From Azolla caroliniana (Eukaryota > Plantae > Polypodiophyta), in NCBI GenBank assembly GCA_043228905.1, contig JBHGNT010000016.1, positions 1,054,001-1,118,000 of the forward strand: DNA of 64,000 nucleotides. The letters are read 5' to 3'. Position 1 is the stretch's first letter; each line of letters starts with the position of its first letter. Shown one piece after another: positions 10,406-44,524 of this stretch. A program made the position numbers and the translations under genes. The notes under the pieces are model-generated. The model made no database searches and was not told the origin of the DNA. It saw nothing but the letters and a program-made list of their open reading frames with translations.

Positions 10406-12826
10406 ATGTGGAAGGTCTTCTCCATCAGAAGAATCACCAATAGGTCCTCAGGAGACTCTCTGTTCCAATGGAGAAGCTCCTGTGAATCCAGCCTTACCGC
10501 AAGAAATGCGCTCTACTGTTTGAATAGAGTGAAGGACCACTTCCAAGATGACATTAAAGACGGAGAAGGAAAAACAGTTCTGGTAGGAAATAGACACCGG
10601 AGCTTCAGTACAAGCGTTTCTGAAAGGAGCACCATAGCTTCAACTAGCGATCCCACAGAAAAATATAAGTTCTCATGGAATGAACCTTTTGAGAAGGAGA
10701 CACAGGCATCTGAAATCTCCTCTGTCGCAGAAGGTTTCCGAGGTGATTCTGCTGATTCCAGTACTGAAAGTAAGCCAATGGCGGCAGGAAGGCTCGGCCG
10801 ACTCCTTATCAGACTTGGCCCCAATGAGTCTGTTACACCTATTCTCCAGCAATGGGCTGAAGAAGGCCATTCTTTCCCTAAGAATGCCATCATTGTTGCT
10901 CTAACGAATTTGAAGCGGCATCGTAGGTACAAACAGGCGCTAGAGGTATGCAAGGGAAGATAATGTAGAACTTATATGTATATGATTTATTGTTTTTGCA
11001 GGTAACTATGTATATATATATACCATGAATATATATTTTTATAATATACATATATGCGTGCTATGCACTATGTATATTATGCATGCATATGTATGCACGT
11101 CTGTTTATGTACACATATATGCACTATGCATTTATAGATGTTCGTGCATATGTGTGTATGTATGTGCTTTTATGTGTCTGTATGCTGGCAAATTAAAACC
11201 TGGCAATTATCTATAAATAAAAAATCTCTCATCAATCAGTTTAGGATGGGTTTCCTGGGGATCTGGGAATAAAGGGGTTGCTTTCTACAATATAAATCAG
11301 TGCTTCAACCTCATACATGTGCCTGCATCTAATATAACTCTATGTTGTCATAAAAGAGGCACTTTGCAATTTTTTTCCCCTTTGTGTTAATGATACAGGA
11401 ATGAAGGGATTGTGTTAATATTAAGTGGCTGATGCTATTTCCTTGTATAATATGCGTGATTTATGAGAATTTATGCTTCGTATTATCTTCCTCGTTTATA
11501 AAGAGTAATATAGTTTTTCGAAGCTATCTTAGTTTCTTAATGCAATATTTCCATCTATTGATTTTACAGCTAGCAAACTATGTAAAAACTGAGAATCTGT
11601 TCGAGATGGATGATTTTGACCACATGTATAGACTCTATTTCACTGGCCAGACTGGATCGATAGAGGATGTTGAAAAATGTTTTGCAGAAGTTCCATCCAA
11701 GTGGTCAACCGAGCTAGTATACAACCAATTGATGTCTTGTTATATTGCAAGGGGTATGATTGCAGAAGCCGAGCGAATGTTAGAGAAATTAAAAGCATCA
11801 GGAAAACATCTTTCAGCGCTACCTTTTAGTCAATTCCTTGCATTATACAGTAATCAGCGTGAGTTCGACAAAGCTTTGAATTTGCTAAGTGAAATGAATG
11901 CTAGAAGTATAGTACCTGATACGAGGACATATAACATCCTTATGAGTATGTCTCATAAACAAGGGCATACAGACAAGGTATTGGGGTTCTATGCTGCCAT
12001 GACTAATGCAGGTGTTGTTGCTGATAGTTTTACTCACTCTTTGGTCATAAAAGCATATACATCATCTGGGATGGTTGAGGAAGCTCAGTTGTTGGCTGAT
12101 GAAATGATGAAAATCAATCCTGCGGATCGCCATCTCGCAAATGATCTGTTACTCACTGTTTATGCTGACTTGGGGAAAGAACAAGAGCTTAAGAAGCTTT
12201 GGAAACGAATGTCGAGCTTTACAAACCTCTCTGCTCGCTCATATGGTGTGATGATCGAGTCTCTTGGGAAGCTTGGTTTAATCCAAGAAGCAGAAGAACT
12301 CGCCACTAGAGCTGAGAGGAAGACAGGAGGGTTAGTAGCAAGAGTATACAATGCAATGATGAATGTTTATGCTAGACATGGGAAAATGAAAGCAGCTGAA
12401 GAGCTTCTTATGCGCATCCAGAAGGATAGATTGAGGCCAAATGCTGTGACATATAGGCATATTATCGAAGGCTATCTTAAATTGGACCACATGGAGAAAG
12501 CATTAGAATATCTCCGATTATCGAGAGAGAGTTTAAGCTTTGATCATTCAAAGCCATGGTTAGCATCCTTTCTTCTTGTTATTGAAAATCTGGCAGAGAG
12601 GGGTGATGTTGAAAGTGCTGAACGCACATTTGAAACGTTCACTGCGGAGGGTCCTTATAGGAGCACGTCGATTTACAATGCCTTGCTAAAGGCTTATGTT
12701 AATGCTGGAAAAAAAACAGTTAATTTTGTCGAACGAATGTCGAAGGATGGTTTTGAACCCGATTCAGAAACTTTGGAGCTTCTGGAGAAAATCGAATCTT
12801 CAAGAAAGGATGCGTCGATGAAGTAG
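10406..12826 (+). CDS. P-class pentatricopeptide repeat protein, probably organelle-targeted; exons 10406-10945 and 11570-12826 (~598 aa)
   Basis: R/S-rich N-terminus and a WAEEG...LKRHRRYKQALE motif. GT donor at 10946 and CAG acceptor ending at 11569 are in phase. Repeated 35-aa PPR motifs (VYNQLMSCY, TYNILMSMS, VYNAMMNVYARHG, TYRHIIEGY, IYNALLKAY). Confidence 0.92.
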
Positions 12827-17630: not shown

Positions 17631-17971
17631 TCTTCCGTGAATCAGGTTCAATCAGAGACCATACTTTTTGGTGGAGCATTCTTTGATCTATTCCACTCCA
17701 TTACAGACTCGGTGCAGAAATTTGAAGGATTGAAAAAAACGAAGAGCCGAAAATTAAGATAAAATTGCACAACACATCAGAGATTTTGTGAAGAAATTCG
17801 AGGAATTCAACCGGGGAAATTTTGTTTGTGTAAAAATTGATTCCCTGTGAATAGATTGTGGCAGGGCATCAACTCAAAGAAAGTACTTCAGTTTGGGCAA
17901 AAGAAAAATTCAATAAGTTGTTTGCTCCTATGATGAAGCTTCCTGGTTAGATAGATTCCAATTCAAATTGG

Positions 17972-19441
17972 ATGGATCATAATTGGAGCCAGTCACTGGC
18001 AAACACATCAGTGGAGTCAGAAACCAGGTATAATACTTCGATGGCGGAGCAATCGACACGCATTGCAATGTCGGGGCCCGGATATAATGGCAAAGAGGAG
18101 GAGGAGGAGGAGGAGGAAGAGGAAGAAGAAGAAGAAGAAGAAGAAGAAAGATCACAAGGACATACAAATGTTTCTCACCCATCTTCGATGGCAGCCATAC
18201 TTGCCGGTGCAGGGAGCAGTGGGCGGAATGATGGAGGAAAGGCAGCTGAAATGGACACTACGAAAACAATGTCGGTGGCTGGAACTGGCGGTGGTGGCAA
18301 TCTGTCGGTGGCCAAGAAGCCGCCGCCCAAACGTTCTTCGACCAAAGATCGGCACCGGAAGGTGGACGGACGAGGCAGACGTATCCGGATGCCCGCCATG
18401 TGCGCGGCCCGGGTTTTCCAGCTCACCAGAGAGCTCGGCCACAAGTCCGATGGCGAGACGATCGAATGGCTCCTCCGGCAGGCGGAGCCTGCCGTCATCG
18501 CCCACACCGGCACAGGCACGATCCCTGCATCAGCCATGGTCACCTCGGGGAGCACACCCTCTAAAAACCCTAACCCTAACCCTAGCTCCAACCCCAATCC
18601 CAACCCCAACCCCAACTCCAGCTCCAACTCCAACCCTAACCCTAACCCTAACCTAAATCATAGCCCGAGCCCCAATCCTAACCTGAATCATAACGCTAAT
18701 CCCAACCCTAACCTAAATCATAACCCTAACTCTCACAATAAAGGTTCGACAATGGCTTTGCCGCCGTCGTTGTGGGCGAGTGCGCCGGGCACCGTGTGGA
18801 TGCTGCCATACGTGCCCGATCCACATCATCAGCACCCGCTCGACTCCTCAGTAGCCTCTCACATCATGACACCTGGCAGCCTCGAGCATCATAACATGTG
18901 GGCAGCAGCGTCGTCGCCGGCCATGATGCTGCCACGTCAGCAGATGCACCACGTGGCGGCGCTCCCGTCAATGCTCATGCAGCCATCGGCCTCGTCGTAC
19001 GTCGCATTCCGGCAACCGGCCGAGGAAGGGCATCTAGGCACGCTCGATGCGTTAAACGCATACGGGCACGGGCACGGGCACGGGCACGGACAAGGACACG
19101 GACATGGGCACGAACATGGACATGGACGTTCGGGATTACCCGTGGACTACCCACGTCAGCTGCCGCATCATTCTCCGACCAATGAGGGGGCCCGTGAGCA
19201 TGCGTGGGGCCGGTCGGGTTTACATATGGATGAACCGGCGCGTCAGCTAGGACATCGGTCCCCGACCAATGAGGGTAGTTGCGAGCATGCGGGTTGGGCA
19301 CGGTTGGGACTACATGCGGACGATTCATGCCAGTTGCCACGCAAGTCACCTGCTAACGATAGAGACGGTGGGGAGCGTGATAGCGGGGACCACCCGACCG
19401 CGACCCCTGCTGCTGCTGCAGAGACAATGAGCTCTCCCTAG
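17972..19441 (+). CDS. TCP: Class I (PCF-type) TCP transcription factor, intronless, 489 aa
   Basis: Contains [62 protein letters not shown], the class I TCP domain. Flanked by poly-E, (NP)n and (GH)n tracts and C-terminal repeats. Confidence 0.97.
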
Positions 19442-23487: not shown

Positions 23488-26400
23488 TCATGACCGCAAG
23501 ACAGCACCAGATGTGATTTTCCAGCTCTTATCATTTGACGTAAGTTCATATCGAGTGGTGTATGCGCTTTCGTATGAGTCTATAACTTCACGTTTTTCTG
23601 CATCATACAAATTCGCTGCCTCACTTAGAGTTGCTTCAACTATGGCCTTCTGACCATCTGTGCTTATCGTCACACTCTCTATATTAAGATCAGCCAGTTT
23701 GTATTCCCAATACCACCCATTCTTGGACACATCCCTCGCACGCTCACACCAGCTCTTCAGCATTTGTCCATCCAAAACCTTCCCAAATTTCAAAAGAAAC
23801 AAAACATTAGCATGTAGGAACAATGTGGTCACACAGGATTGCTTTTAAACATATAACCTCAATATCATAATGAGGAACAAAACATTCACCAAATTTTGTA
23901 TAATTTTAGCGAAAGCAAATCATGTCTCTTTTTCTAGGATGAATATAGGTGGCTCACTTTTAGTTATATGGAACTGCTATTTTGCTAGAGTATATGTATT
24001 TACCATGTAATCGAAACTTAATGTTTTCCTTAGTAGCTTATATAATGAAGTCACGCTCATTGACCAAATTGCTTTTTTGTGCATGCATCTTCTTGAATTA
24101 CAAATTTCATTGAAGATTCAAAGAATGGCATAAATTACCTCGGAAAGTTTTTCAACAGCATGATCTTGACCAAGAGCATGAGCCTTGGCAGTTTGCCATT
24201 TCTCAACAAGCTGTTCTGCGAGCTGTGCATTCATTTTTGGAGTGATTTGATTTTTTTTAACTGTAACTCGACCTGTTAAGAAAATACTAGCCACCATTAT
24301 GTCAGAAATTTGGAGCACATGCTAAATAACCATCATCATCTAAATCATAGTTGTACAAAAATGAGTACATTCAGAATATGGATCAGAATACTCTCAAGTA
24401 TTGTACATGTATTCTATGTTTTAGAGCTGTCATTTTATAATATGTTACGTATTCTAAGAATACAATGTATTCTACGCATTCTTCATATTTAAAAGGTATT
24501 TAAAATTTCTAAAATGCTAAAAAAGTTTAATTTAATTATTATTATTTTTAAAAAGTTTAAAATTGATAAGTATCTAACATATTTTATCTGGAGAATATAT
24601 ATTCTGAGTATTTTAAAGAAGCTAGAATATTTAGAACACATATTCTCTGGATATTGTATGCTAAGTATTCTACAACAATGATCTAAATCAAGTGGGAAAA
24701 TTTGAACACAAAACCCAGAGCTTAAGTATCATTAATGATGTGTTTTGCTGGATTCTTTACCTGCAATCTTACTAGACATTGTTTTTTTCTCATGCTTAAA
24801 TATAGTGTTTCTCATAAAATAGATCTTCCAGCCAGCAAAAGCTAGAGCCCCAAACAAAGCTGTGATTCCTACAATTTGAATAACAGAATTTCTTGATGTT
24901 CTTGTATATTCCGTGTCTTCTGCTACTTTATGATCATCTGAAGAAAAATGTAGACCACTTTTTCTCTCTGTATTAACTGGAATAGATGGATTGTATGGGG
25001 ACAAATAGTCCTTATTCTGCTCATGTTTGATATCAGTGATAACCGGGGATTCAACATTGTTTTTCTGCCGTTGCACTCCAACTTTACCTAGTGGAAAAAC
25101 TTTCTGCAAAGTCTCCTTCATGCTATCAAGAGCAGCACCTGCCCCAGCTCCTAATTGCACAATCGCCGCTGCAGCTGCTAGTGGTGACTCACCTTTCTCT
25201 AGCTTCTCCAGATAATTCAGTACACTGGAATCATCATAGTAATCTCGCAATTTGACATGCAATTGATCTGTTTCACGGAAACTTGGGAAAACCACCTCCC
25301 TAAGCCAACTTTCCAACAGTTTGCAAAGGCCAGGTAGATAAACATCTTCATCAGTTCCATAGGAATTTGCAATAACAAAATCAGTCACAGCAGGTTCGCG
25401 ATATGGAGAGTTTATATCATCCAACCCTAGCCATGCACGGCAGTCATCAAGCTCGCCCAACAGAAGTTGACACATTGCTCTCTCAAATGCAAAGTCAAGT
25501 TGTTGATCTGTTGAAGCATTTGACCCACCCACTGCAAATGCATTAGAAGATGCATTTGTTTGTTGAAGTTGAAGGAATAAATTATCTGCTTCCTTGATAA
25601 GGTATGGTTTCTTTGAAGAAAAACCTTCAGCAACATGTGCAAGAGCAACAGAGTAAACCTCCGAACTCTCTGCTGGAATGTTGCTTGGAGTGGAAGTAAA
25701 TAACGCTACTTGCTCAGCAGCTGTCATATGAGTAAATGCTTCTTTCATATAGTCCTCTCGCGTGTACCCAGGTATATGTGCAAAAGCGCCACCTTCACCA
25801 ACAGCCCACAAAATGCTTTGTAATCCTTGTAAGCCTTCTTCTCGCTTCCCTCTATGCTCCTTATCAAGTGGAAATGCAAGAAGTTCTAAGACACAATGGG
25901 GATTTAATTTCTGCAATGTTTCATCTATTTGTTCCTGCAAGGCTGGAGCTAGGCTACTGCCACCTTCCTCCTACATAAAAGTAATGGCAGGTTATTGGCA
26001 CGAAGTATTAATTTAGAAAAGCATGTATTATTTGTTCCTGCAAGGCTGGAGCTAGGCTACTGCCACCTTCCTCCTACATAAAAGTAATGGCAGGTTATTG
26101 GCACGAAGTATTAATTTAGAAAAGCATGTATTATTTGTTCCTGCAAGGCTGGAGCTAGGCTACTGCCACCTTCCTCCTACATAAAAGTAATGGCAGGTTA
26201 TTGGCACTAAGTATTAATTTAGAAATGCAAACTCTATTCGAGAAATAACCTGGATGAATCTGTATTTCTTTACAAAGTTTTTCTATCTTCCATTTCTTAT
26301 TTCAAAGTAGTTTGAAATCACATTTTTGACATCCATTCATGCTTTGACTGTCTTTACAAATGCACATGCAAATGAACCTATAATTCAATAACTATTCCAT

Positions 26401-35549: not shown

Positions 35550-36225
35550 TGTTAGGAATTGACGCTTTCAAACCTTCACCTCTCGGCCACAACCGAGGAA
35601 ACACGGATCAATGCAGCAGTAAATCGAAAAACACAGAGAGAGAGACTCGAATGCACAGGGTTTAGCGTGAAAACCCTAGACGAGAAAAACCACGGGAGTG
35701 AAAAATACTCCAACTATCACTATACGCAGGGAATGTACAATGGCGAGCTGCAAGGCGACGACCTTGAGCTCGCTGTCCTCGCCACAGACGGCGGTATTAC
35801 ACAGAGGCGTCTACCTCTTCCTTTATCTCTCTCTCTCTCGCTCTCTCTCTCGGCTGCTCTCACTTCGCTCCCTCTAAGTGGAAAACAGAAAAATGAGCAG
35901 CAACATACAGCAGTTTGCCCTAAGTCATATTTATACACATATGACTTTCGGGCTATTTACAAATATAGCCTCAAGGGCCCTTGGCAAACATATTCACACA
36001 TATGTCCCCGCATCTGGATCTCTCTCCGGGTACATTCGTCATCCGGCTCCGTAACCGGGGTCTTCATCATCCGGCTTCGTAGCCGGGTCTTTATCCGGCT
36101 TCATGCCGGGTACTCTTCATCCGGCTTCATGCCGGGTACTCTTCATCCTCTGGTTCCGTAACCGTAACCGGGCTTGCCGTCATTCATTTCCGGACATCCC
36201 ATCCGGAGGGACCGAAATCCCAACA
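35550..36225 (-). repeat. 3' LTR of the copia element
   Basis: Direct repeat of 43849-44524, adjacent to the PPT. Confidence 0.97.
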
Positions 36226-36235
36226 AACTCCCCCT

Positions 36236-38547
36236 TCACTTCGGCATGGGATGTCTTTCCAGTCCGATCCTCTTCCGGCATGCATCCAGCTTGTCGGGTG
36301 TGAGAACCTTGGTCAGCATATCCAACCCGTTCTCGTCCGTGTGGATCTTCGTCAGCACGAACTCCTTGTCTTCTATCCTTTCCCGGATCCAGTGATATCT
36401 TCGCTGGATGTGCTTCGTCCGGGAGTGATAGGCCGCGTTCTTCGCAAGGTGGATGGCACTCTGACTGTCGCAGTAGAGTCGGTACTCCTCCTGCCGGATA
36501 CCGAGCTCTCTAATGAAGTCCTTCATCCATATTATTTCCTTGCCGGCTTCAACAGCCGCCATGTACTCCGCCTCCGTGGTTGACAACGCAACCGTCTTTT
36601 GCAGCCTCGACTGCCACGAAACAGCTCCCCCTGCATACGTCATCACATACCCTGATGTGGACCGGCTGGTATCTGCATCAGCCGACATATCCGAATCGGT
36701 GAAGCCGTCGAGTTCGGGCTTACCGGAGCCGAATCGGAGGCACACGTTTGCCGTGCCCTTCAGGTATCGGAGTATCCACTTGACCGCGTTCCAGTGCTCT
36801 TTGCCGGGATTGCTCATGTACCGGCTCACCACTCCGACTGCATATCCTATGTCCGGTCTTGTACACACCATTGCGTACATCAAGCTTCCGACGGCAGAGG
36901 CATATGGTACTTTCATCATGTCCTCCTTATCAGCCTTTGTCTTGGGGCTTTGCTTGCTGGACAACTTGCAGTTTGCCGGGAGGGTTGACCCGACCGGTCT
37001 TGCTTCCGACATGTTGAACCGTTGAAGCACCTTTGTCACGTACTTCTCCTGTGACAGCCACAACTGCTTCTTCCTCCGGTCCCGGATGATGTGCATCCCT
37101 AATATTTGCCTCGCCGGACCCAAGTCCTTCATTGAGAAGGTTCGGTGAAGAGCCTTCTTCAGCATCCGTATCTTGACCTGGTCCCGTCCGACGATCAACA
37201 TGTCGTCCACGTACAAGAGGAGTATTAGAAAGTCTCCTCCTTCGAACTTCTTCACAAACACGCAGTGATCGGACTGCGTTTTGTGGTACCCTTCGTCGGT
37301 CATGAAGGAGTCGAACTTCCGGTACCACTGCCGGGGAGCCTGCTTCAGTCCGTAAAGGCTCTTCTTCAACCGGCATACCAGGTGCTCCTTCCCTTTCTTC
37401 TCGAATCCTTCCGGTTGCTGCATGTAGATCTCTTCTTCGAGGTCACCGTGAAGGAATGCCGTCTTCACGTCCATCTGTTCTACCTCGAGGTCCATGCTTG
37501 CCGCTATGCTCAGCACCGTCCGGATGGAGGTCATCTTCACTACCGGGGCAAATATCTCATCGAAGTCGACGCCCTTCTTCTGCTGGAACCCCTTCACCAC
37601 GATTCTGGCTTTGTATCTCGGGGGGTTTCCGGCATCTCCCGGTTTCAGCTTGAACACCCACTTGTTTCGAAGTGCCCGCTTTCCTTTTGGCAACTCCACA
37701 AGTTCATATGTGTGGTTCTCATGTAGGGAATCCATCTCCTCCTGCATGGCACTTAACCACCTGCGGCTATGGGTGTCAAGCTTTGCATCTTCGAAACTCT
37801 CCGGCTCCCCCTCGTCGGTTAGCAGCATGTGCTCTGGTTCCGGAAATCTCCGGGGGGCCCTTCTCTCTCTTAGAGGATATCTCCATTCCGGAGCTTCGGT
37901 AACCGGCTCCTCCGTTTCCTCTTCATCCGAATCCATTTCGGGATCGGGGCCGGTTCCGGTATCAGTTTCATCTTCCTCGGCCGGTTCTGTTTCTTCACCG
38001 TCTTCGGCCGGATCCTCGAGTGCTAACCGGTCCCTTGCCGGTCGGGACTGCTCTTCGTAGAGTTGATTCTCACCGGTCGACTTGGAGCTCTTCATCTTCT
38101 TCTCCGACTCCCAGTCGGCGAGTGTCTTGTCCTCCATGAAGACTCCTGAATATCTTCTTGTCGACCGGGTCCCATACTCGGTAGCCGAACTCATCGTTGC
38201 CGTAACCGAGGAATATGCATGGCCGGGTCTTTGGATCTAGCTTTCCTCTCCGGTCCTTTGCCACATGCACATATACTAGACACCCGAACACCTTCAGATG
38301 CCGGTAGGACACTTCCTTACCGGTCCACACTCTCTGCGGCGTGTCTCCGTCCAAAGGTACTGAGGGTGATCTGTTTATCACGTATGTCGCCGTCGACATT
38401 GCCTCAGCCCAAAACCCCTTGGGTAATTTCGCATGCGCCAGCATACTCCGGACCCTCTCCATTATGGTCCGGTTCATCCTCTCGGCCAGCCCGTTCAGTT
38501 CCGGCGTCTTCGGCACAGTAAACTCGAGCCGGATTCCCATCGAACGG
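36236..38547 (-). pseudogene. Copia pol: integrase C-terminal part, reverse transcriptase and RNase H (frameshift at ~38140)
   Basis: TPELNGLAERMNRT and GKLDPKTRPCIFLGY in one frame. YKARIVVKGF, QMDVKTAFLHG, SLYGLKQAPRQW, LLYVDDML, TDSDMSAD and HSRTKHI in another frame. Confidence 0.95.
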
Positions 38548-38667
38548 TGTCGTGACGATTTTCGGCTACGGTGTGAAACCGAGTGAGACGAATAAACCAA
38601 GGATGTGCAACATTGCACATGCACTTAGCAAATAAACCTAGCCTAGTGGCACTTGAGTTCATACAGA

Positions 38668-38740
38668 GGGGTGCAAGCAAGGATTGAACCTTGCACCTCT
38701 AACATACAAGATAATTGCCTTACCACTAGGACAACTATCA
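38668..38740 (-). promoter_or_regulatory. tRNA-derived sequence (Pol III A/B-box-like) in the 5' LTR of the nested element
   Basis: The minus strand reads TGATAGTTGTCCTAGTGGTAAGGCAATTATCTTGTATGTTAGAGGTGCAAGGTTCAATCCTTGCTTGCACCCC. It has an A-box-like TGTCCTAGTGG and a B-box GGTTCAATCC inside a GCAAGG/CCTTGC stem, at tRNA-like spacing. Acceptor and anticodon stems are degenerate. Confidence 0.7.
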
Positions 38741-39194
38741 TATAGTGTAGATTGTATGTATTTCCTTTTCATATACAAATTATAGACGAAACAACCATAG
38801 AAAACCATGTGCACAAAACCATGGTTTTAAACCCATGGTTTGTGCATGACATAAGCAAAACCGTGTGCACAAAACCATGGTTTTAGCCCATGGTTTTGTG
38901 CATGTCACGAGCATGGAAAGACCTATAAAAGCCTCTAGTTGGGCTTGTGTAAGGGGGGCTCAATATGTGATATCACCAACACCATTATCATCAATATAAT
39001 TATATTTGTCTTTATCTTCTTCATTATTTTCTACTTCTCAAGTGTACAATCTTTCTTCTTCTCAAGTGAACAAATTCCGTCTAATCTTACATTGATCGTC
39101 ATCTCTTCGATAATTCCGCGAACATCCTCCCCAGTCCAAGACCCCGGTGGTCGCTCGAGTAGCACACGCACGCGCGAATCTTCGCGACATCATT

Positions 39195-39212
39195 TGGTGA
39201 ACCCGACGTGAA
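39195..39212 (+). other. Primer binding site complementary to the tRNA-Trp 3' end
   Basis: TGGTGAACCCGACGTGAA is the reverse complement of TTCACGTCGGGTTCACCA, which I recall as the plant cytosolic tRNA-Trp(CCA) 3' end. Confidence 0.85.
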
Positions 39213-39233
39213 GAGCAGCAGGGGAGGACGAAG

Positions 39234-41459
39234 ATGGATGTCGAATATCTCATGGAGGCAATGTCAAGAAGGATGATGGAGTTTCTGAGAGAAGAGAAAA
39301 GAAGAAATGAAGCCCAACAAGCCGTCGACAAAGTAGTCGAACGAATGAGCTATTTCAATGGTGCCGAAGTCCAAAGTTTCCTAAAAGTCTACAATGCGGA
39401 GATGGATTCAAGAGGTGTGGACAAAGCTATGAGGCTAGAGTACTTTTGTCGGGTGGTGTCTCAACCGATCTTCAAACATGTAACAGAGCTTCTAGAAGCT
39501 CATGATTCGTGGGCGACTTTCGAGAAGGCTCTATTGGAGGAATATGACTATGAGAGACTAAAGGGACAAGATCGACGCAACTTCGACCAATGGGTGACAT
39601 CAGCGAAGACCCACCAAGGCGCGACACAAGCATTCGTAGACTTCGAGCATCATTTTTCTCAATTGTCGGAGCGGGAACAAAGATTGGTGGGGGTCGATAA
39701 GGTCCTTATGTTCGTGAAGTCAATCGATCGAATGGAAAGGATGGCGATCGGCCTCAAACTCGAAGAAGATGATGGTGCAAATGGCCTCATCGAGGATTGG
39801 AGCAAAGTGGAAAGTGTATGCCGACTACACGATAAGGGGCAAGCGAGAATATCGACGACAACAAGACGGCCCATGAGGGATGATCGAAGAGGGACGAGAT
39901 GCAACAACGCACCACCAACAAAAGAAATGAAGCTTAGAAGGGAGACAAAACCGAGGCGAATGGTGATCGAGGAAGAAGAGACCTCCCAACAAATGCGGGT
40001 TAATGAAGTGGCCAATGCAAAGGCTAAGGTTCGGTATGACGGTACCGAGAGAGAAGGTGTGAAACAAGTCACCTTCTTGTCTTACAAAGAAACGACGGCG
40101 AAGGAGGAGGCCGATGACTCGAGGACGGCGAACGCCACTTCGAGGGAGGATAAATGTTTTGGAACACGCATTGTGTACGAAACATCGGGTGATGACGGCG
40201 CAAGCATGAGAAAAGCTTGCATGATCGAGGGAGAAAAAGTGTTTGAGTCTGAAGAGATTGAGGAGGTAGCCATGACAAACGACATCAAGTCGGAGGTGGC
40301 TATGGACGAGTCGACAACGGATAGCCATGTCAAGACTTTCTCCACGATTGTTCCAAAGACTTCGGCGGTTGCGCCCATGTGCCAACGTGAGACCGGAGAG
40401 ACGGAAGGTGGTGACGGGAAGACAAAGGCCCAACACAAGGAGGAAGAAGATCGAGGAAGAAAGGATATCCCCACACCTATTCTAGAGACTTCGGCGATTG
40501 TGCACGTGCGCCAACGTGAGACCGGAGAGACAGAATGTGTGGACAAAAAAGAGGACGACCGGAAGGGCGATGAAGAAGACAAGGTAAATGTAAATGAACG
40601 AAGGGATTCCTTCACACTGGTTCCGGAGACTTCGGCAGTCGAGACCGTGTGTCGACATAAGACCGAAGATAAAGGAGGTGGCGAAGAGGAGACAATATGG
40701 CTCAAGGCGAGCATACACAGAGGGAAGGATATGGCCGACGTGGAGGCCAAGGATGAAGCTGCGGTTGAGTTCGATGGAGAGGTTGCATGCGGGAAGGAAG
40801 GAAGAGTCGAGAACCGGTTGAACCGGAAGACGATCCGGCCGGGATTCCGACCCGAACGAAGGAAGATCCACATGGGAGCCGATCGACCGGGGCCGACCCG
40901 GCCGAAACCTGATTCGGCGAAAATCGATCGGACGATTCCGATCCAAAAGGAGGCCGACCCAGCCAGAATCAATCGGTCGAGCCCGACTCGGGGAAATGTG
41001 AATGAAGACGAAGGCCAACCAAGCCAAGAAGCGATCGGTGGAGACCGATCCGGACAAGGGCAAACCCGGCCTAATCGGAGATCAACACGAACGATCTACA
41101 ATACCCAGTTGAAGACGGTGAGCGTGAGGAGTGGCCAGGAGTCCAATCGAAGGACACGCGCGGTGGACGAAGGAAGAGCGGTCGTATCGACGACATCGTT
41201 CGGTAGATCTACTACAACCGATCGGGGAAGAAGGTGTGAGCGCCGGATATGGTGGATCGGGTGGCTACGGTGGTTCGGTTGGAAAGATTGCGCATACTCG
41301 AAGTGGAAGACGAAGTCGACGAGCGTGCAGAGGAACTCGGTTGATCACCGTTGCCAAAGATCTCACCTCTTCACCTTTCTCGGCACATACCGGAGGATGT
41401 GCGGGTTTGGTGGGGGTGGATGTCGTGACGATTTTCGGCTACGGTGTGAAACCGAGTGA
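39234..41459 (+). CDS. Gag-like protein with a long acidic, disordered C-terminal extension (741 aa)
   Basis: Uninterrupted ORF starting ~20 nt after the PBS. The N-terminal ~200 aa look like a helical retrotransposon capsid (YFNGAEVQSFLKVYNAEM...SWATFEKALLEEY). No PR, RT, RH or IN motifs and no CCHC knuckle. The stop lies within the 3' LTR. Confidence 0.8.
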   Translation: MDVEYLMEAMSRRMMEFLREEKRRNEAQQAVDKVVERMSYFNGAEVQSFLKVYNAEMDSRGVDKAMRLEYFCRVVSQPIFKHVTELLEAHDSWATFEKALLEEYDYERLKGQDRRNFDQWVTSAKTHQGATQAFVDFEHHFSQLSEREQRLVGVDKVLMFVKSIDRMERMAIGLKLEEDDGANGLIEDWSKVESVCRLHDKGQARISTTTRRPMRDDRRGTRCNNAPPTKEMKLRRETKPRRMVIEEEETSQQMRVNEVANAKAKVRYDGTEREGVKQVTFLSYKETTAKEEADDSRTANATSREDKCFGTRIVYETSGDDGASMRKACMIEGEKVFESEEIEEVAMTNDIKSEVAMDESTTDSHVKTFSTIVPKTSAVAPMCQRETGETEGGDGKTKAQHKEEEDRGRKDIPTPILETSAIVHVRQRETGETECVDKKEDDRKGDEEDKVNVNERRDSFTLVPETSAVETVCRHKTEDKGGGEEETIWLKASIHRGKDMADVEAKDEAAVEFDGEVACGKEGRVENRLNRKTIRPGFRPERRKIHMGADRPGPTRPKPDSAKIDRTIPIQKEADPARINRSSPTRGNVNEDEGQPSQEAIGGDRSGQGQTRPNRRSTRTIYNTQLKTVSVRSGQESNRRTRAVDEGRAVVSTTSFGRSTTTDRGRRCERRIWWIGWLRWFGWKDCAYSKWKTKSTSVQRNSVDHRCQRSHLFTFLGTYRRMCGFGGGGCRDDFRLRCETE

Positions 41460-41540
41460 GACGAATAAACCAAGGATGTGCAACATTGCACATGCACTTA
41501 GCAAATAAACCTAGCCTAGTGGCACTTGAGTTCATACAGA

Positions 41541-41613
41541 GGGGTGCAAGCAAGGATTGAACCTTGCACCTCTAACATACAAGATAATTGCCTTACCACT
41601 AGGACAACTATCA
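41541..41613 (-). promoter_or_regulatory. Second copy of the tRNA-derived A/B-box module (3' LTR of the nested element)
   Basis: Same sequence as 38668-38740. Confidence 0.7.
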
Positions 41614-42062
41614 TATAGTGTAGATTGTATGTATTTCCTTTTCATATACAAATTATAGACGAAACAACCATAGAAAACCATGTGCACAAAACCATGGTTT
41701 TAAACCCATGGTTTGTGCATGACATAAGCAAAACCGTGTGCACAAAACCATGGTTTTAGCCCATGGTTTTGTGCATGTCACGAGCATGGAAAGACCTATA
41801 AAAGCCTCTAGTTGGGCTTGTGTAAGGGGGGCTCAATATGTGATATCACCAACACCATTATCATCAATATAATTATATTTGTCTTTATCTTCTTCATTAT
41901 TTTCTACTTCTCAAGTGTACAATCTTTCTTCTTCTCAAGTGAACAAATTCCGTCTAATCTTACATTGATCGTCATCTCTTCGATAATTCCGCGAACATCC
42001 TCCCCAGTCCAAGACCCCGGTGGTCGCTCGAGTAGCACACGCACGCGCGAATCTTCGCGACA

Positions 42063-43826
42063 ACGGCAATACTCCTCAAATTGCCCTCGGTATTCTCCTC
42101 CATTATCCGCTCGTATCGCTTTCAGCTTCTTGCCGGATTCCCTTTCCACTCTCGCGTGGAGTTCTTTGAAGACGCACAATACTTGGTCCTTTGTCTTCAT
42201 CGGTGCCGTCCACAGCTTCCGGCTATGGTCATCTATGAATGTCACGAAGTACTAGGCTCCGCCATGTGACTTCGTTTCTACTTGACACACGTCAGTGTGC
42301 ACCAACTCCAATGGTGCGCTACGTCTCGTCGGTGGCCTTGAGTGGAAGGAGGTTCGGTTCTGCTTACCAGCCAGACAGTCGGTACACTTCCCCAGGTGTA
42401 CGTGCTTTACCGGTATCAGATTGTCTTCGGCAAGCCTCTTCATCCCCTTCTCGCTCATGTGGCACAGTCTCTTGTGCCACAGCTCACCGTCAGTGTCAGC
42501 TGCCACGTTCAGCTCCTCCGGACATAGCCAGGAATTCATCAGGTACAGTGTGTTGATCTTCCGGGCCCGAGCTACTATCAGGCTCCCTTTGCTGAACTTC
42601 ATGACACCGTTCCGGATGCTACCCGTGTAGCCTTCATCGTCTAGCCTCCCGGTCGAAATCAGGTTCAATCGAACCTCCGGAACGTGTCGGACATCCTTCA
42701 ACAGCATCTTGCATCCGGTTGATGTCATCAGCCACACGTCTCCTATGCCGGCAATCCGGCATGTACCTTCATTTCCCATCCGGACACAGCCGTGCTCACT
42801 GGCTGTGTAGGATGAGAAGTATTTCTTCTCGGGGGTCAGATGGAACGACGCTCCGGAATCGACCACCCAGGTCATCTCTTCACCGGCAAGGTTCAGCTCC
42901 CTCTCTTCGGTAATGAGCATTATCTCTTCTTCACTTGCCGCGAGTGCCGTCGTTCCTTTCCGGTCCTGCCCTCGCCGATCCGGACCTCTCCGGTCCGTGG
43001 CTCCCCGGTATGCACCGTTTCGCTCCGGTGACTTCTTCGAATCGGTGTCGTCGGCTCCGTTGTCTTTTCGGTAATGCCGACAATTCTTTCGGAAGTGCCC
43101 CGGCTTCCCACAGTGGAAGCATGTGGGCCTTCCTCTTGACTGCGACCGGGTCCCCGACTTCTCCCGTCTTTGCGGACTCCGGTTCCGTTGTCTTCCCCGA
43201 TCCAATTCGGAAAGCAGCATCTTCGGATCGGAGGCCGGTTCTTTATCTCTCCGACGCGCTTCTTCGTTCAAAATGCTTGTCTTTATCATTTGTAGGGACA
43301 AGTTATCTTCGGTGCAGGAGGTGCTGAGAGTCACCACCAAGTTCTCCCAGCTTTCCGGCAATGTACACATCAGGATGATGGCTTGCATTGCATCTTCCAA
43401 CGGGAACTTGATCGCCGCAAGCTGGTTCACGAAACCCATGAACGTGCTTACGTGTTCCACCATACTCTCGTCGTCCCGGTACTTGAGGTTCACTATCTTC
43501 CTCATCAGGGAGGTCCGGTTCAACGCATTCTTCCTCTCGTAGAGGCCCGACAGCTTCCGCCACATCTCATATGCGTTGGTGTCGTTCGCCACATGTTGTA
43601 GAACGCTCACGTCGACGTATTGCCGAATGGTTGCAACGGCTTTCCGGTTCAGAAGCCTCCATTCCGTCTCAAGTACCCCCTTGGGTATTTCCGACCTGTC
43701 GATCGGTTCATACAGGTCCCGAACAATGAGCAGATCCTCCATCTTTATCTTCCAGTCGGCGTAGTTCTGCGCATTCAGCACCATCATCCCCGGCTGCCCG
43801 CTGCTGCCGCCTTCCATTTTCTGCAC
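42063..43826 (-). pseudogene. Copia gag-protease-integrase N-terminal part (in-frame TAG at 42252-42254)
   Basis: LNAQNYADWKIKMEDLL, knuckle CFHCGKPGHFRKNC, protease WVVDSGASFH, LWHKRLCHMS, LELVHTDVC; after the stop, YFVTFIDDHSRK...IRADNGGEY in the same frame. Confidence 0.95.
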
Positions 43827-43848
43827 TGCCGTCGCTCTGATACCACTT

Positions 43849-44524
43849 TGTTAGGAATTGACGCTTTCAAACCTTCACCTCTCGGCCACAACCGAGGAAA
43901 CACGGATCAATGCAGCAGTAAATCGAAAAACACAGAGAGAGAGACTCGAATGCACAGGGTTTAGCGTGAAAACCCTAGACGAGAAAAACCACGGGAGTGA
44001 AAAATACTCCAACTATCACTATACGCAGGGAATGTACAATGGCGAGCTGCAAGGCGACGACCTTGAGCTCGCTGTCCTCGCCACAGACGGCGGTATTACA
44101 CAGAGGCGTCTACCTCTTCCTTTATCTCTCTCTCTCTCGCTCTCTCTCTCGGCTGCTCTCACTTCGCTCCCTCTAAGTGGAAAACAGAAAAATGAGCAGC
44201 AACATACAGCAGTTTGCCCTAAGTCATATTTATACACATATGACTTTCGGGCTATTTACAAATATAGCCTCAAGGGCCCTTGGCAAACATATTCACACAT
44301 ATGTCCCCGCATCTGGATCTCTCTCCGGGTACATTCGTCATCCGGCTCCGTAACCGGGGTCTTCATCATCCGGCTCCGTAGCCGGGTCTTTATCCGGCTT
44401 CATGCCGGGTACTCTTCATCCGGCTTCATGCCGGGTACTCTTCATCCTCTGGTTCCGTAACCGTAACCGGGCTTGCCGTCATTCATTTCCGGACATCCCA
44501 TCCGGAGGGACCGAAATCCCAACA
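43849..44524 (-). repeat. 5' LTR of the copia element
   Basis: Adjacent to the PBS. Minus-strand TATAAATA at ~44227-44234 and CCGG-rich ~25-bp repeats in U3. Confidence 0.97.

What the first reader, a model, noticed from the sequence alone, without database searches (positions are those of the whole stretch)
38548..42062. Very young Gag-only LTR element with a tRNA-Trp PBS and apparent 4-bp TSD, nested antisense in a copia integrase
Seen: LTRs identical by eye, an intact PBS and PPT-like tract, and one 741-aa ORF filling the 2.2-kb interior with no pol. With TG...CA termini the TSD is ACGG (4 bp). A 5-bp AACGG reading is possible only if the LTR loses its terminal A. Known: TR-GAG elements were described mainly in angiosperms, and most plant LTR elements make 5-bp TSDs, many priming with iMet. 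Inference: this is a recently active parasite of an autonomous Trp-primed, non-chromovirus gypsy lineage of non-seed plants (possibly Phygy/Selgy-like), supplying its own capsid and borrowing RT/IN.
Basis: partly seen in the sequence, partly recalled or inferred. Interest (0 to 1): 0.72.

Follow-up and report, generated by a model that had tools for sequence, protein, structure and literature searches.

The report
Capsid-only jumping gene targeting CG sites
This is a young, many-copy plant jumping gene that encodes only a capsid protein, inserts at CG sites with a 4-base duplication, and likely borrows its copying and insertion enzymes from full-length relatives in the same genome, a known parasitic lifestyle that we did not find described for this lineage.

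Summary
Observation confirmed: a 3,515-bp element with identical 642-bp LTRs, a tRNA-Trp PBS, a PPT and one 741-aa ORF lies antisense inside the integrase core of a young copia. It is not a single-copy deletion: 50 of 61 examined copies have the same two-LTR, pol-less build; 42 of 50 show an exact 4-bp TSD, none 5 bp, and 49 of 50 have CG at its centre. 4-bp NCGN plus tRNA-Trp is the published signature of the Phygy gypsy lineage, so these traits are not new. Residues 1-205 fold as a two-lobed retroelement capsid under purifying selection; there is no zinc knuckle or protease, only a ~530-aa likely disordered tail ending in a Trp-rich motif. Its capsid belongs to a deep Gag-only clade (three further pol-less families in this genome), only 22-36% identical to Gag of the autonomous Phygy-type families that share its PBS, pre-PPT hairpin and LTR termini. 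Mosaic ends suggest helper switching. Closest precedent: TR-GAG and wheat RLG_Quinta. Expression and co-assembly untested. Interest 0.42.

The parts
38544..38547 (+). left 4-bp target site duplication ACGG (NCGN type)
38548..39189 (+). 5' LTR, 642 bp, TGTCG...CGACA; TATA-like CTATAAAA near 38924; last 65 nt 81% like autonomous family E
39195..39211 (+). primer binding site, 17 nt complementary to the genome's tRNA-Trp(CCA) 3' end
39234..39848 (+). capsid domain (aa 1-205), two-lobed Arc/Ty3-type CA fold, under purifying selection
39849..41249 (+). charged low-complexity tail of the ORF, likely disordered, with three ~84-nt internal repeats; no zinc knuckle, no protease
41250..41306 (+). Trp-rich motif (aa 673-691) kept in frame with the capsid in related Gag-only proteins; function not shown
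41383..41402 (+). predicted hairpin just before the PPT, shared with all Trp-primed families examined, two compensatory pairs
41409..41420 (+). polypurine tract
41421..42062 (+). 3' LTR, identical to the 5' LTR; first 20 nt 90% like autonomous family F
42063..42066 (+). right 4-bp target site duplication ACGG
35550..44524 (-). host Ty1/copia element (gag-PR-INT-RT; LTRs 676 bp, 1 mismatch; 5-bp TSD CTATA), interrupted in its integrase core; its pol also has an in-frame stop near 42252 and a frame shift near 38.1-38.2 kb

Best explanation
It is a young copy of a multi-copy, pol-less LTR retrotransposon family that encodes a capsid with a long tail and is likely mobilised in trans by autonomous Phygy-type gypsy elements of the same genome. 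Shown: structure, copy number, 4-bp NCGN insertion sites, capsid fold, selection on the capsid, shared cis signals with intact autonomous families. Inferred: the LTR drives one RNA that is both mRNA and template; host tRNA-Trp primes minus strand at the PBS; helper reverse transcriptase uses the hairpin-PPT block; helper integrase binds the TGTCG...CGACA ends and cuts at CG with a 4-bp stagger, which in a CG-poor genome drops copies mostly into other repeats such as this copia. The capsid protein is most likely kept because it helps the element's own RNA into particles that also carry helper Gag-Pol. The family is a long-lived parasite that has changed helpers by template switching; by 3'-end match the likeliest recent helper is family F (my odds about 0.4), otherwise the abundant young families A, B or C'.
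For: 50 of 61 examined copies (window plus 60 of the 151 Gag matches, picked from the best-scoring) have two LTRs and a pol-less interior, 47 of 50 of 2,219-2,245 bp; 16 of 50 have identical LTRs, 37 of 50 at most 2 mismatches; 42 of 50 exact 4-bp TSD, 49 of 50 central CG against 6.4% CG in flanks. REXdb lists Phygy as 4 bp (100%) NCGN, tRNA-Trp 81% (PMC6317226 supplement 3). Model of aa 1-210 pLDDT 86; best match dArc1 capsid Z 11.2, rmsd 7.5, 160 aligned, N-lobe rmsd 1.8 over 69, the first 31 rows all retroelement capsids. Capsid variants shared by 2 or more copies 26 N/24 S versus singletons 60 N/20 S, Fisher p 0.008; between-family dN/dS 0.21-0.39. Autonomous families with the same PBS, RT-RH-INT order, 4-bp NCGN TSDs and young LTRs: A (at least 150 RT matches at 99-100%; LTRs up to 100%), B (LTRs 99.9-100%), C' (0-2 LTR mismatches, 14 of 15 exact NCGN TSD), F (15 of 23 loci examined; 7 of 7 complete copies NCGN). 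F matches the element at 85-86% over 111 nt spanning the end of the interior and LTR start; E matches the U5 end at 81%. Gag-only capsids form one clade, 100/100, stem about 1.0 change per column. L058 and L068 are pol-less mosaics: capsid N-lobe 67-75% like A, C-lobe 60-70% like this element, A-type LTR ends. Flanks of 42 of 50 copies hit a repeat library, 1 of 100 control pieces from this window.
Against: Capsid identity to any helper Gag is only 22-36%, so co-assembly is not a given; the ORF has no CCHC knuckle, which the helpers have. No Pfam family hits the ORF and Foldseek gave no match at E<=0.001. Family F is mostly older than this family (5 of 7 complete copies have 13-18 LTR mismatches; only 1 of 15 has both long ORFs) and E is older still (95.6-98.7%), so best cis match and best age match point to different helpers. 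The tail shows no significant selection signal (p 0.31). Copies were chosen by similarity to the window copy, which inflates youth and intactness. The repeat-flank control came from one gene-rich window, not the genome. Phygy membership of the helpers was not tested against REXdb reference sequences.
Confidence: 0.78

Rival explanations
1. RNA-level parasite with an accessory protein: the RNA rides in particles built only from helper Gag, and its own capsid-tail protein acts as a competitor, lattice modifier or RNA shield rather than as the shell.
For: Low capsid identity to helpers; no zinc knuckle; long tail; all needed cis signals are shared with helpers. A Ty1 capsid fragment acting as restriction factor appears among the fold matches (9rxy title).
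Against: Both capsid lobes are intact and conserved across a deep clade; recombinants join a helper N-lobe to a Gag-only C-lobe in frame, which suits a shared lattice.
Confidence: 0.14
2. Recent internal-deletion derivative of an autonomous parent with the same Gag that I missed (unassembled, low copy or lost lately), or one half of a two-part system with a pol-only partner.
For: Genome searches score only the best candidates, so absence is not shown; 10 of 110 PPT-junction matches were not listed. The two youngest F copies have an open pol but a broken gag-pro.
Against: 20 PPT-junction sites lacking Gag at the usual distance were fetched; 19 match the family and none has pol as its own interior (pol-like sequence was nested or flanking). 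No protein of 1,298-3,705 aa with this capsid was found (weak). Relatives down to 55% identity also lack knuckle and protease. The tail has no match in families A, B, C, E. The gag breaks of the two F copies lie at different places.
Confidence: 0.07
3. Single-copy post-insertion deletion or an assembly artefact.
For: Identical LTRs alone could come from collapse in assembly.
Against: 50 complete copies at different sites with different TSDs; 40 best LTR matches at 97-100% on many contigs.
Confidence: 0.01

Closest known systems
Phygy lineage, Ty3/gypsy non-chromovirus (Neumann et al. 2019, PMC6317226; passages and supplement 3 read)
   Same: 4-bp NCGN TSD, tRNA-Trp PBS; the capsid profile hits a Physcomitrium patens protein (A9U5C3) with the helpers' DUF4100 architecture.
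   Different: Listed Phygy elements are 7.7-10.0 kb and polyprotein-coding; elements lacking the polyprotein were filtered out of that survey. This one is 3.5 kb, capsid-only. Related pol also occurs in Riccia and Adiantum.
TR-GAG (Chaparro et al. 2015, PMC4350172; passages read; mobilisation shown in Arabidopsis, PMC8704663, passages read)
   Same: Under 4 kb, LTRs, PBS, PPT, one Gag ORF, no pol, many conserved copies with distinct TSDs.
   Different: 4-bp sequence-specific TSD instead of 5 bp; capsid without zinc knuckle plus a 530-aa tail; no close autonomous parent. The words moss and Physcomitrella do not occur in that paper; Selaginella was the only non-angiosperm surveyed.
RLG_Quinta with RLG_Cereba, and RLG_Sabrina/WHAM with RLG_Wilma, in wheat (PMC11302176, PMC9744471; passages read)
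   Same: Old semi-autonomous gypsy lineages with Gag plus an unknown domain, Gag diverged from the helper's, only PBS, PPT and LTR termini shared, recombination by template switching proposed.
   Different: Other lineages (CRM-type and others) in grasses with one named helper each; here several co-existing helper families, mosaic cis ends and CG-site targeting.
Selgy and TatI (PMC6317226 supplement 3)
   Same: 4-bp TSD; TatI also uses tRNA-Trp.
   Different: Selgy uses tRNA-Ala; TatI carries an archaeal-type RNase H, for which the helpers' pol showed no Pfam hit.

Membership tests
TR-GAG | LTRs TG...CA, PBS, PPT, length under 4 kb | tested here: met
   3,515 bp
TR-GAG | single ORF similar to Gag capsid, no PR, RT, RH, INT | tested here: met
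   Capsid by fold and by 22-36% identity to helper Gag; no pol domain. No Pfam Gag hit, so HMM-based TR-GAG finders could miss it.
TR-GAG | at least two conserved copies with distinct TSDs | tested here: met
   50 complete copies of 61 examined
TR-GAG | 5-bp TSD as described for the coffee elements | tested here: not met
   0 of 50 five-bp, 42 of 50 four-bp; TSD length is set by the helper integrase, so this makes it a variant
TR-GAG | transcribed | tested here: inconclusive
   no run on record as RNA was listed
Phygy | 4-bp TSD with NCGN motif | tested here: met
   for the element; for the autonomous families
Phygy | tRNA-Trp PBS | tested here: met
Phygy | RT-RH-INT phylogeny grouping with REXdb Phygy references | not testable with these tools
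   The element has no pol; REXdb reference sequences were not at hand for the helpers. Helper A RT-RH is 67-70% identical to Riccia proteins.
Phygy | no chromodomain, no aRH, polyprotein fills the interior (helpers) | tested here: met
   Pfam on pol of A and B: RT, RH, INT only; ORFs fill the 5.7-kb interior. C, E, F pol not scanned by Pfam.
Phygy | size 7.7-10.0 kb with polyprotein | tested here: not met
   Element 3.5 kb, pol-less; helpers 7.0-7.9 kb (A, B, C, F), E larger. Filed as a Phygy-type dependent, not as an autonomous member.
Selgy | tRNA-Ala PBS | tested here: not met
   PBS is tRNA-Trp
TatI | archaeal-type RNase H in pol of the helper | tested here: inconclusive
   no extra RNase H family hit in A or B pol; absence of a Pfam hit is not proof
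Semi-autonomous partner pair (criteria of PMC9744471) | same PBS and conserved LTR termini | tested here: met
   PBS shared; 5' 6-8 nt and 3' 5-8 nt identical with A, B, C, E; F 90% over first 20 nt
Semi-autonomous partner pair (criteria of PMC9744471) | overlapping insertion ages and matching subfamily structure with one named helper | tested here: inconclusive
   A, B, C' overlap in age, F only partly; samples small and biased; subfamily PCA not done

The most novel reading that the evidence does not exclude
An ancient capsid-only lineage of Phygy-type elements that has lost the nucleocapsid knuckle, survives by hopping between helper families through template switching of its LTR and PPT ends, and uses a new tail with a conserved Trp-rich C-terminal motif to capture helper Gag-Pol or its own RNA into a hybrid particle whose two capsids are only about one third identical.
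Probability: 0.2. Interest if true: 0.7.

Novelty: new variant of a known kind. Interest (0 to 1): 0.42.

Why it matters
It extends Gag-only semi-autonomous retrotransposons to the CG-targeting Phygy-type lineage and shows a class of elements that Pfam and polyprotein-based classifiers miss although it has over a hundred copies here. The compact system (several young helper families, at least four Gag-only families, natural capsid chimeras) makes two open questions testable: what a pol-less element's Gag is for, and how little sequence a parasite must share with its helper. Strict CG-centred insertion also offers a natural case of sequence-directed integration that steers copies into other repeats. 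The life style itself is known from coffee, Arabidopsis and wheat, which limits the surprise.

Tried and rejected
5-bp TSD reading: rejected by siblings; the empty-site frame test could not tell 4 from 5 bp. Selgy: rejected by PBS. Pfam on the ORF: no hit at E<=1; PDB sequence search with the capsid alignment: none; Foldseek: none at E<=0.001, though the top rows were capsids. Longer fused homologues: none found, weak. ESM Atlas on aa 600-741: no usable hit; on aa 20-210 the nearest clusters were Retrotrans_gag at 0.93-0.94, a lead only. Full-length model: tail under pLDDT 50 from aa 179 on, consistent with disorder but also with a shallow alignment. Complex prediction of this capsid with helper A capsid: no answer (score 0.01). 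Expression: no RNA holder listed; contigs of four runs of unknown kind were laid and are not interpreted. Bipartite reading (pol-only F copies plus Gag-only element): dropped, only two copies and different breaks. Helper A as partner looked best at first (31 nt identical at the hairpin) but E and F match the ends better. The AU tests reject pairing the window capsid with any single helper, but this mostly reflects its close Gag-only relatives. First tRNA pattern found nothing; the relaxed one did. PPT replaced by a tRNA copy, as in other notes on this genome: not the case here, an ordinary purine tract is present. Literature: 10 searches listed no paper on a Gag-only Phygy element; subscription papers and bioRxiv supplements were not searchable, and repeat libraries of non-seed-plant genome papers may hold such families unnamed.
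Full report
Observation. The element spans 38548-42062 exactly as given. Its LTRs are 642 bp, identical, TG...CA, with ACGG on both sides. The PBS at 39195-39211 pairs over 17 nt with the 3' end plus CCA of a tRNA-Trp(CCA) gene of the same genome. A purine tract (41409-41420) precedes the 3' LTR. One ORF of 741 aa starts 44 nt after the 5' LTR and ends 39 nt inside the 3' LTR. The host is a minus-strand copia at 35550-44524 (gag, protease, integrase, RT by Pfam; LTRs 676 bp with 1 mismatch; 5-bp TSD CTATA), and the insertion sits between the second D and the E of its integrase core. Since the host's LTRs differ by one base, the nested insertion is younger still; with a recalled rate near 9e-9 per site per year that is of the order of 100,000 years or less (rough).

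Family. The LTR search gave 40 scored matches at 97-100%, the capsid search 151 matches, an exact PPT-LTR pattern 110 sites; all are lower bounds. I fetched 60 of the best Gag matches; with the window copy, 50 of 61 had both LTRs inside the 4 kb fetched. Of these, 47 have an interior of 2,219-2,245 bp, 16 identical LTRs and 37 at most 2 mismatches; 37 keep an ORF of 682 aa or more. 42 have an exact 4-bp TSD, none 5 bp; one is a tandem and seven differ by one base. 49 of 50 have CG in the middle of the right-hand 4-mer against a CG frequency of 6.4% in the flanks. Flanks average 49% GC against 37% for the window background, and 42 of 50 hit a repeat library built from other fetched loci (control 1 of 100 pieces of this window). 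The sample is biased to young, intact copies. Twenty PPT sites without Gag at the usual distance (picked by eye from the 100 listed) were fetched; 19 match the family and none has pol as its own interior.

Known signature. REXdb (PMC6317226; passages and supplement 3 read) gives Phygy as 4-bp TSD (100%, NCGN), tRNA-Trp PBS (81%), 7.7-10.0 kb, and notes it as the only plant lineage with a target motif; Selgy uses tRNA-Ala, TatI has an extra RNase H. PMC6911290 (passages) also reports 4-bp TSDs and nesting for Phygy.

Protein. Pfam finds nothing. Residues 1-205 are 22-36% identical to the N-terminus of gag-pro of the autonomous families below (E to 1e-32). A model of aa 1-210 (pLDDT 86) matches dArc1 capsid at Z 11.2 (rmsd 7.5, 160 aligned), with separate matches of both lobes, and the first 31 rows are retroelement capsids; Foldseek ranked the same capsids first without a significant E-value. 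The helpers carry a CCHC knuckle, DUF4100 and a protease after the capsid; this ORF has none. Its tail is charged, low in hydrophobic residues, basic towards the end, unmodelled by AlphaFold and without match in A, B, C or E; only its last codons resemble the end of F pol (E 0.017). A Trp-rich motif (aa 673-691) is in frame in L068 and in 5 of 7 related database proteins scanned. Variants in the capsid shared by two or more copies are 26 N/24 S (pN/pS about 0.29) against 60 N/20 S in singletons (0.81), p 0.008; the tail shows 119/67 against 178/80, p 0.31; between-family dN/dS on the capsid is 0.21-0.39. All four shared indels fall at codons 692-696 and a stop at codon 699 is in 11 of 50 copies, just after the Trp motif; against this, two stops shared by 2-3 copies lie upstream, and that spot may be a slippage hotspot.

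Helpers. A PBS pattern gave 478 sites of many families. Sampling found autonomous elements with RT-RH-INT order and NCGN TSDs: A (7.3-7.4 kb, at least 150 RT matches at 99-100%, LTRs 93-100%), B (7.9 kb, LTRs 99.9-100%), C and its young branch C' (7.0-7.2 kb; 0-2 LTR mismatches in 15 copies), D (one nested copy), E (LTR 1.76 kb, 95.6-98.7%) and F (7.7-8.4 kb, 15 of 23 loci examined, LTR mismatches 2/982 to 18/962). They share with the element the PBS, TGTCG...CGACA ends and a short hairpin before the PPT. For that hairpin 22 of 49 variants were aligned; 98.9% of cells pair and two pairs change on both sides, but the variants were collected with a stem-like pattern and 328 of 500 shuffles reached two such pairs, so support is modest. 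Identity to the element over the 45 nt before the 3' LTR, the first 20 LTR bases and the last 65 LTR bases is A 82/45/60, B 78/60/51, C' 76/65/66, E 91/68/81, F 91/90/63. The element's two ends thus resemble two different helpers.

Age of the life style. In capsid trees all pol-less families of this genome (this one, the 5-kb family, L169/L055) and database proteins without knuckle or protease form one clade, 100/100, on a stem of about 1.0 change per column, weakly sister to C and E (mosaics left out of the last two trees). Pol-less structure was seen in DNA for this family, 7 of 17 loci of the 5-kb family, L169, L058 and L068; the database proteins have no DNA context. One of them (P0009) is at most 61% identical to anything scored in this genome, so the clade likely spans other genomes. 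Named relatives of the helpers are from Riccia, Adiantum and Physcomitrium; the host is therefore likely a non-seed plant, which I did not test with host genes. L058 and L068 join an A-like capsid N-lobe and A-type LTRs to a Gag-only C-lobe, the expected product of template switching between co-packaged RNAs (inference).

Mechanism. Shown: repeated integrase-type insertion of a pol-less unit at NCGN sites, and selection on its capsid. Inferred: transcription from the LTR, priming by tRNA-Trp, reverse transcription and integration by helper enzymes, and a capsid protein that favours entry of its own RNA into particles with helper Gag-Pol. Which helper acts now is open: F fits the 3' end best but is mostly older; A, B and C' fit the age. 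Expression and co-assembly were not shown.

Comparison and novelty. TR-GAG (PMC4350172, passages) defines the structure, and mobilisation was shown in Arabidopsis (PMC8704663, passages). Wheat RLG_Quinta (Gag plus an unknown domain, 28-35 million years old, recombinant; PMC11302176, passages) and Sabrina/WHAM (PMC9744471, passages) are precedents for old semi-autonomous lineages with diverged Gag; sugar beet shows many without a traceable parent (PMC13570524, passages). A survey of active Physcomitrium elements (PMC7466625, passages) does not use the term non-autonomous. Ten searches listed no Gag-only Phygy element. Three look-ups in this scan's notes found none on this family; notes on another lineage led me to inspect the pre-PPT region. 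Verdict: a real, well-supported new variant of a known kind; interest 0.42.

Noticed in passing
L031, L032, L153, L148; also L017/L019: In 3 of 7 one-base TSD mismatches the last base of the left TSD is A (the base before the 3' LTR), and in 1 the first base of the right TSD is T (the base after the 5' LTR); three of these four copies have identical LTRs. Possibly one base of the cDNA overhang is sometimes kept at integration.
   Followed up: no
L154-L157, L164, L165, L171: Second Gag-only family, about 5.0-5.2 kb, 488-aa capsid ORF plus about 2 kb of further interior without pol, LTRs 90-97% identical; at least 90 matches in the genome.
   Followed up: partly
L058:348-4031, L068:418-4059: Pol-less mosaics with family-A LTRs and capsid N-lobe joined in frame to a Gag-only C-lobe and tail.
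   Followed up: partly
L110, L071, L096 gag-pro ORFs: Helper protease motif reads DHGSEIN, with His where D-T/S-G is usual (usual motif recalled); ORF1 holds capsid, knuckle, DUF4100 and protease, pol follows in an overlapping frame.
   Followed up: no
G000:C8:17796786-17823371 and G000:C16:4989495-5105637: Clusters of tRNA-Trp-like 3' ends (16 and 19 pattern matches); 64 matches genome-wide; three loci elsewhere were confirmed as tRNA-Trp genes.
   Followed up: no
L017-L019, L122: Tandem three-LTR copies of the element; L011 and L012 are solo LTRs with 4-bp NCGN TSDs.
   Followed up: no
window 38801-38913 and 41674-41786: Two 56-nt palindrome-rich repeats inside each LTR upstream of the TATA-like box.
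   Followed up: no
window 11405-12826 (+), 17951-19441 (+), 24732-25970 (-): Host genes in the window: a PPR protein, a TCP transcription factor and an ARC6-like plastid division exon.
   Followed up: no
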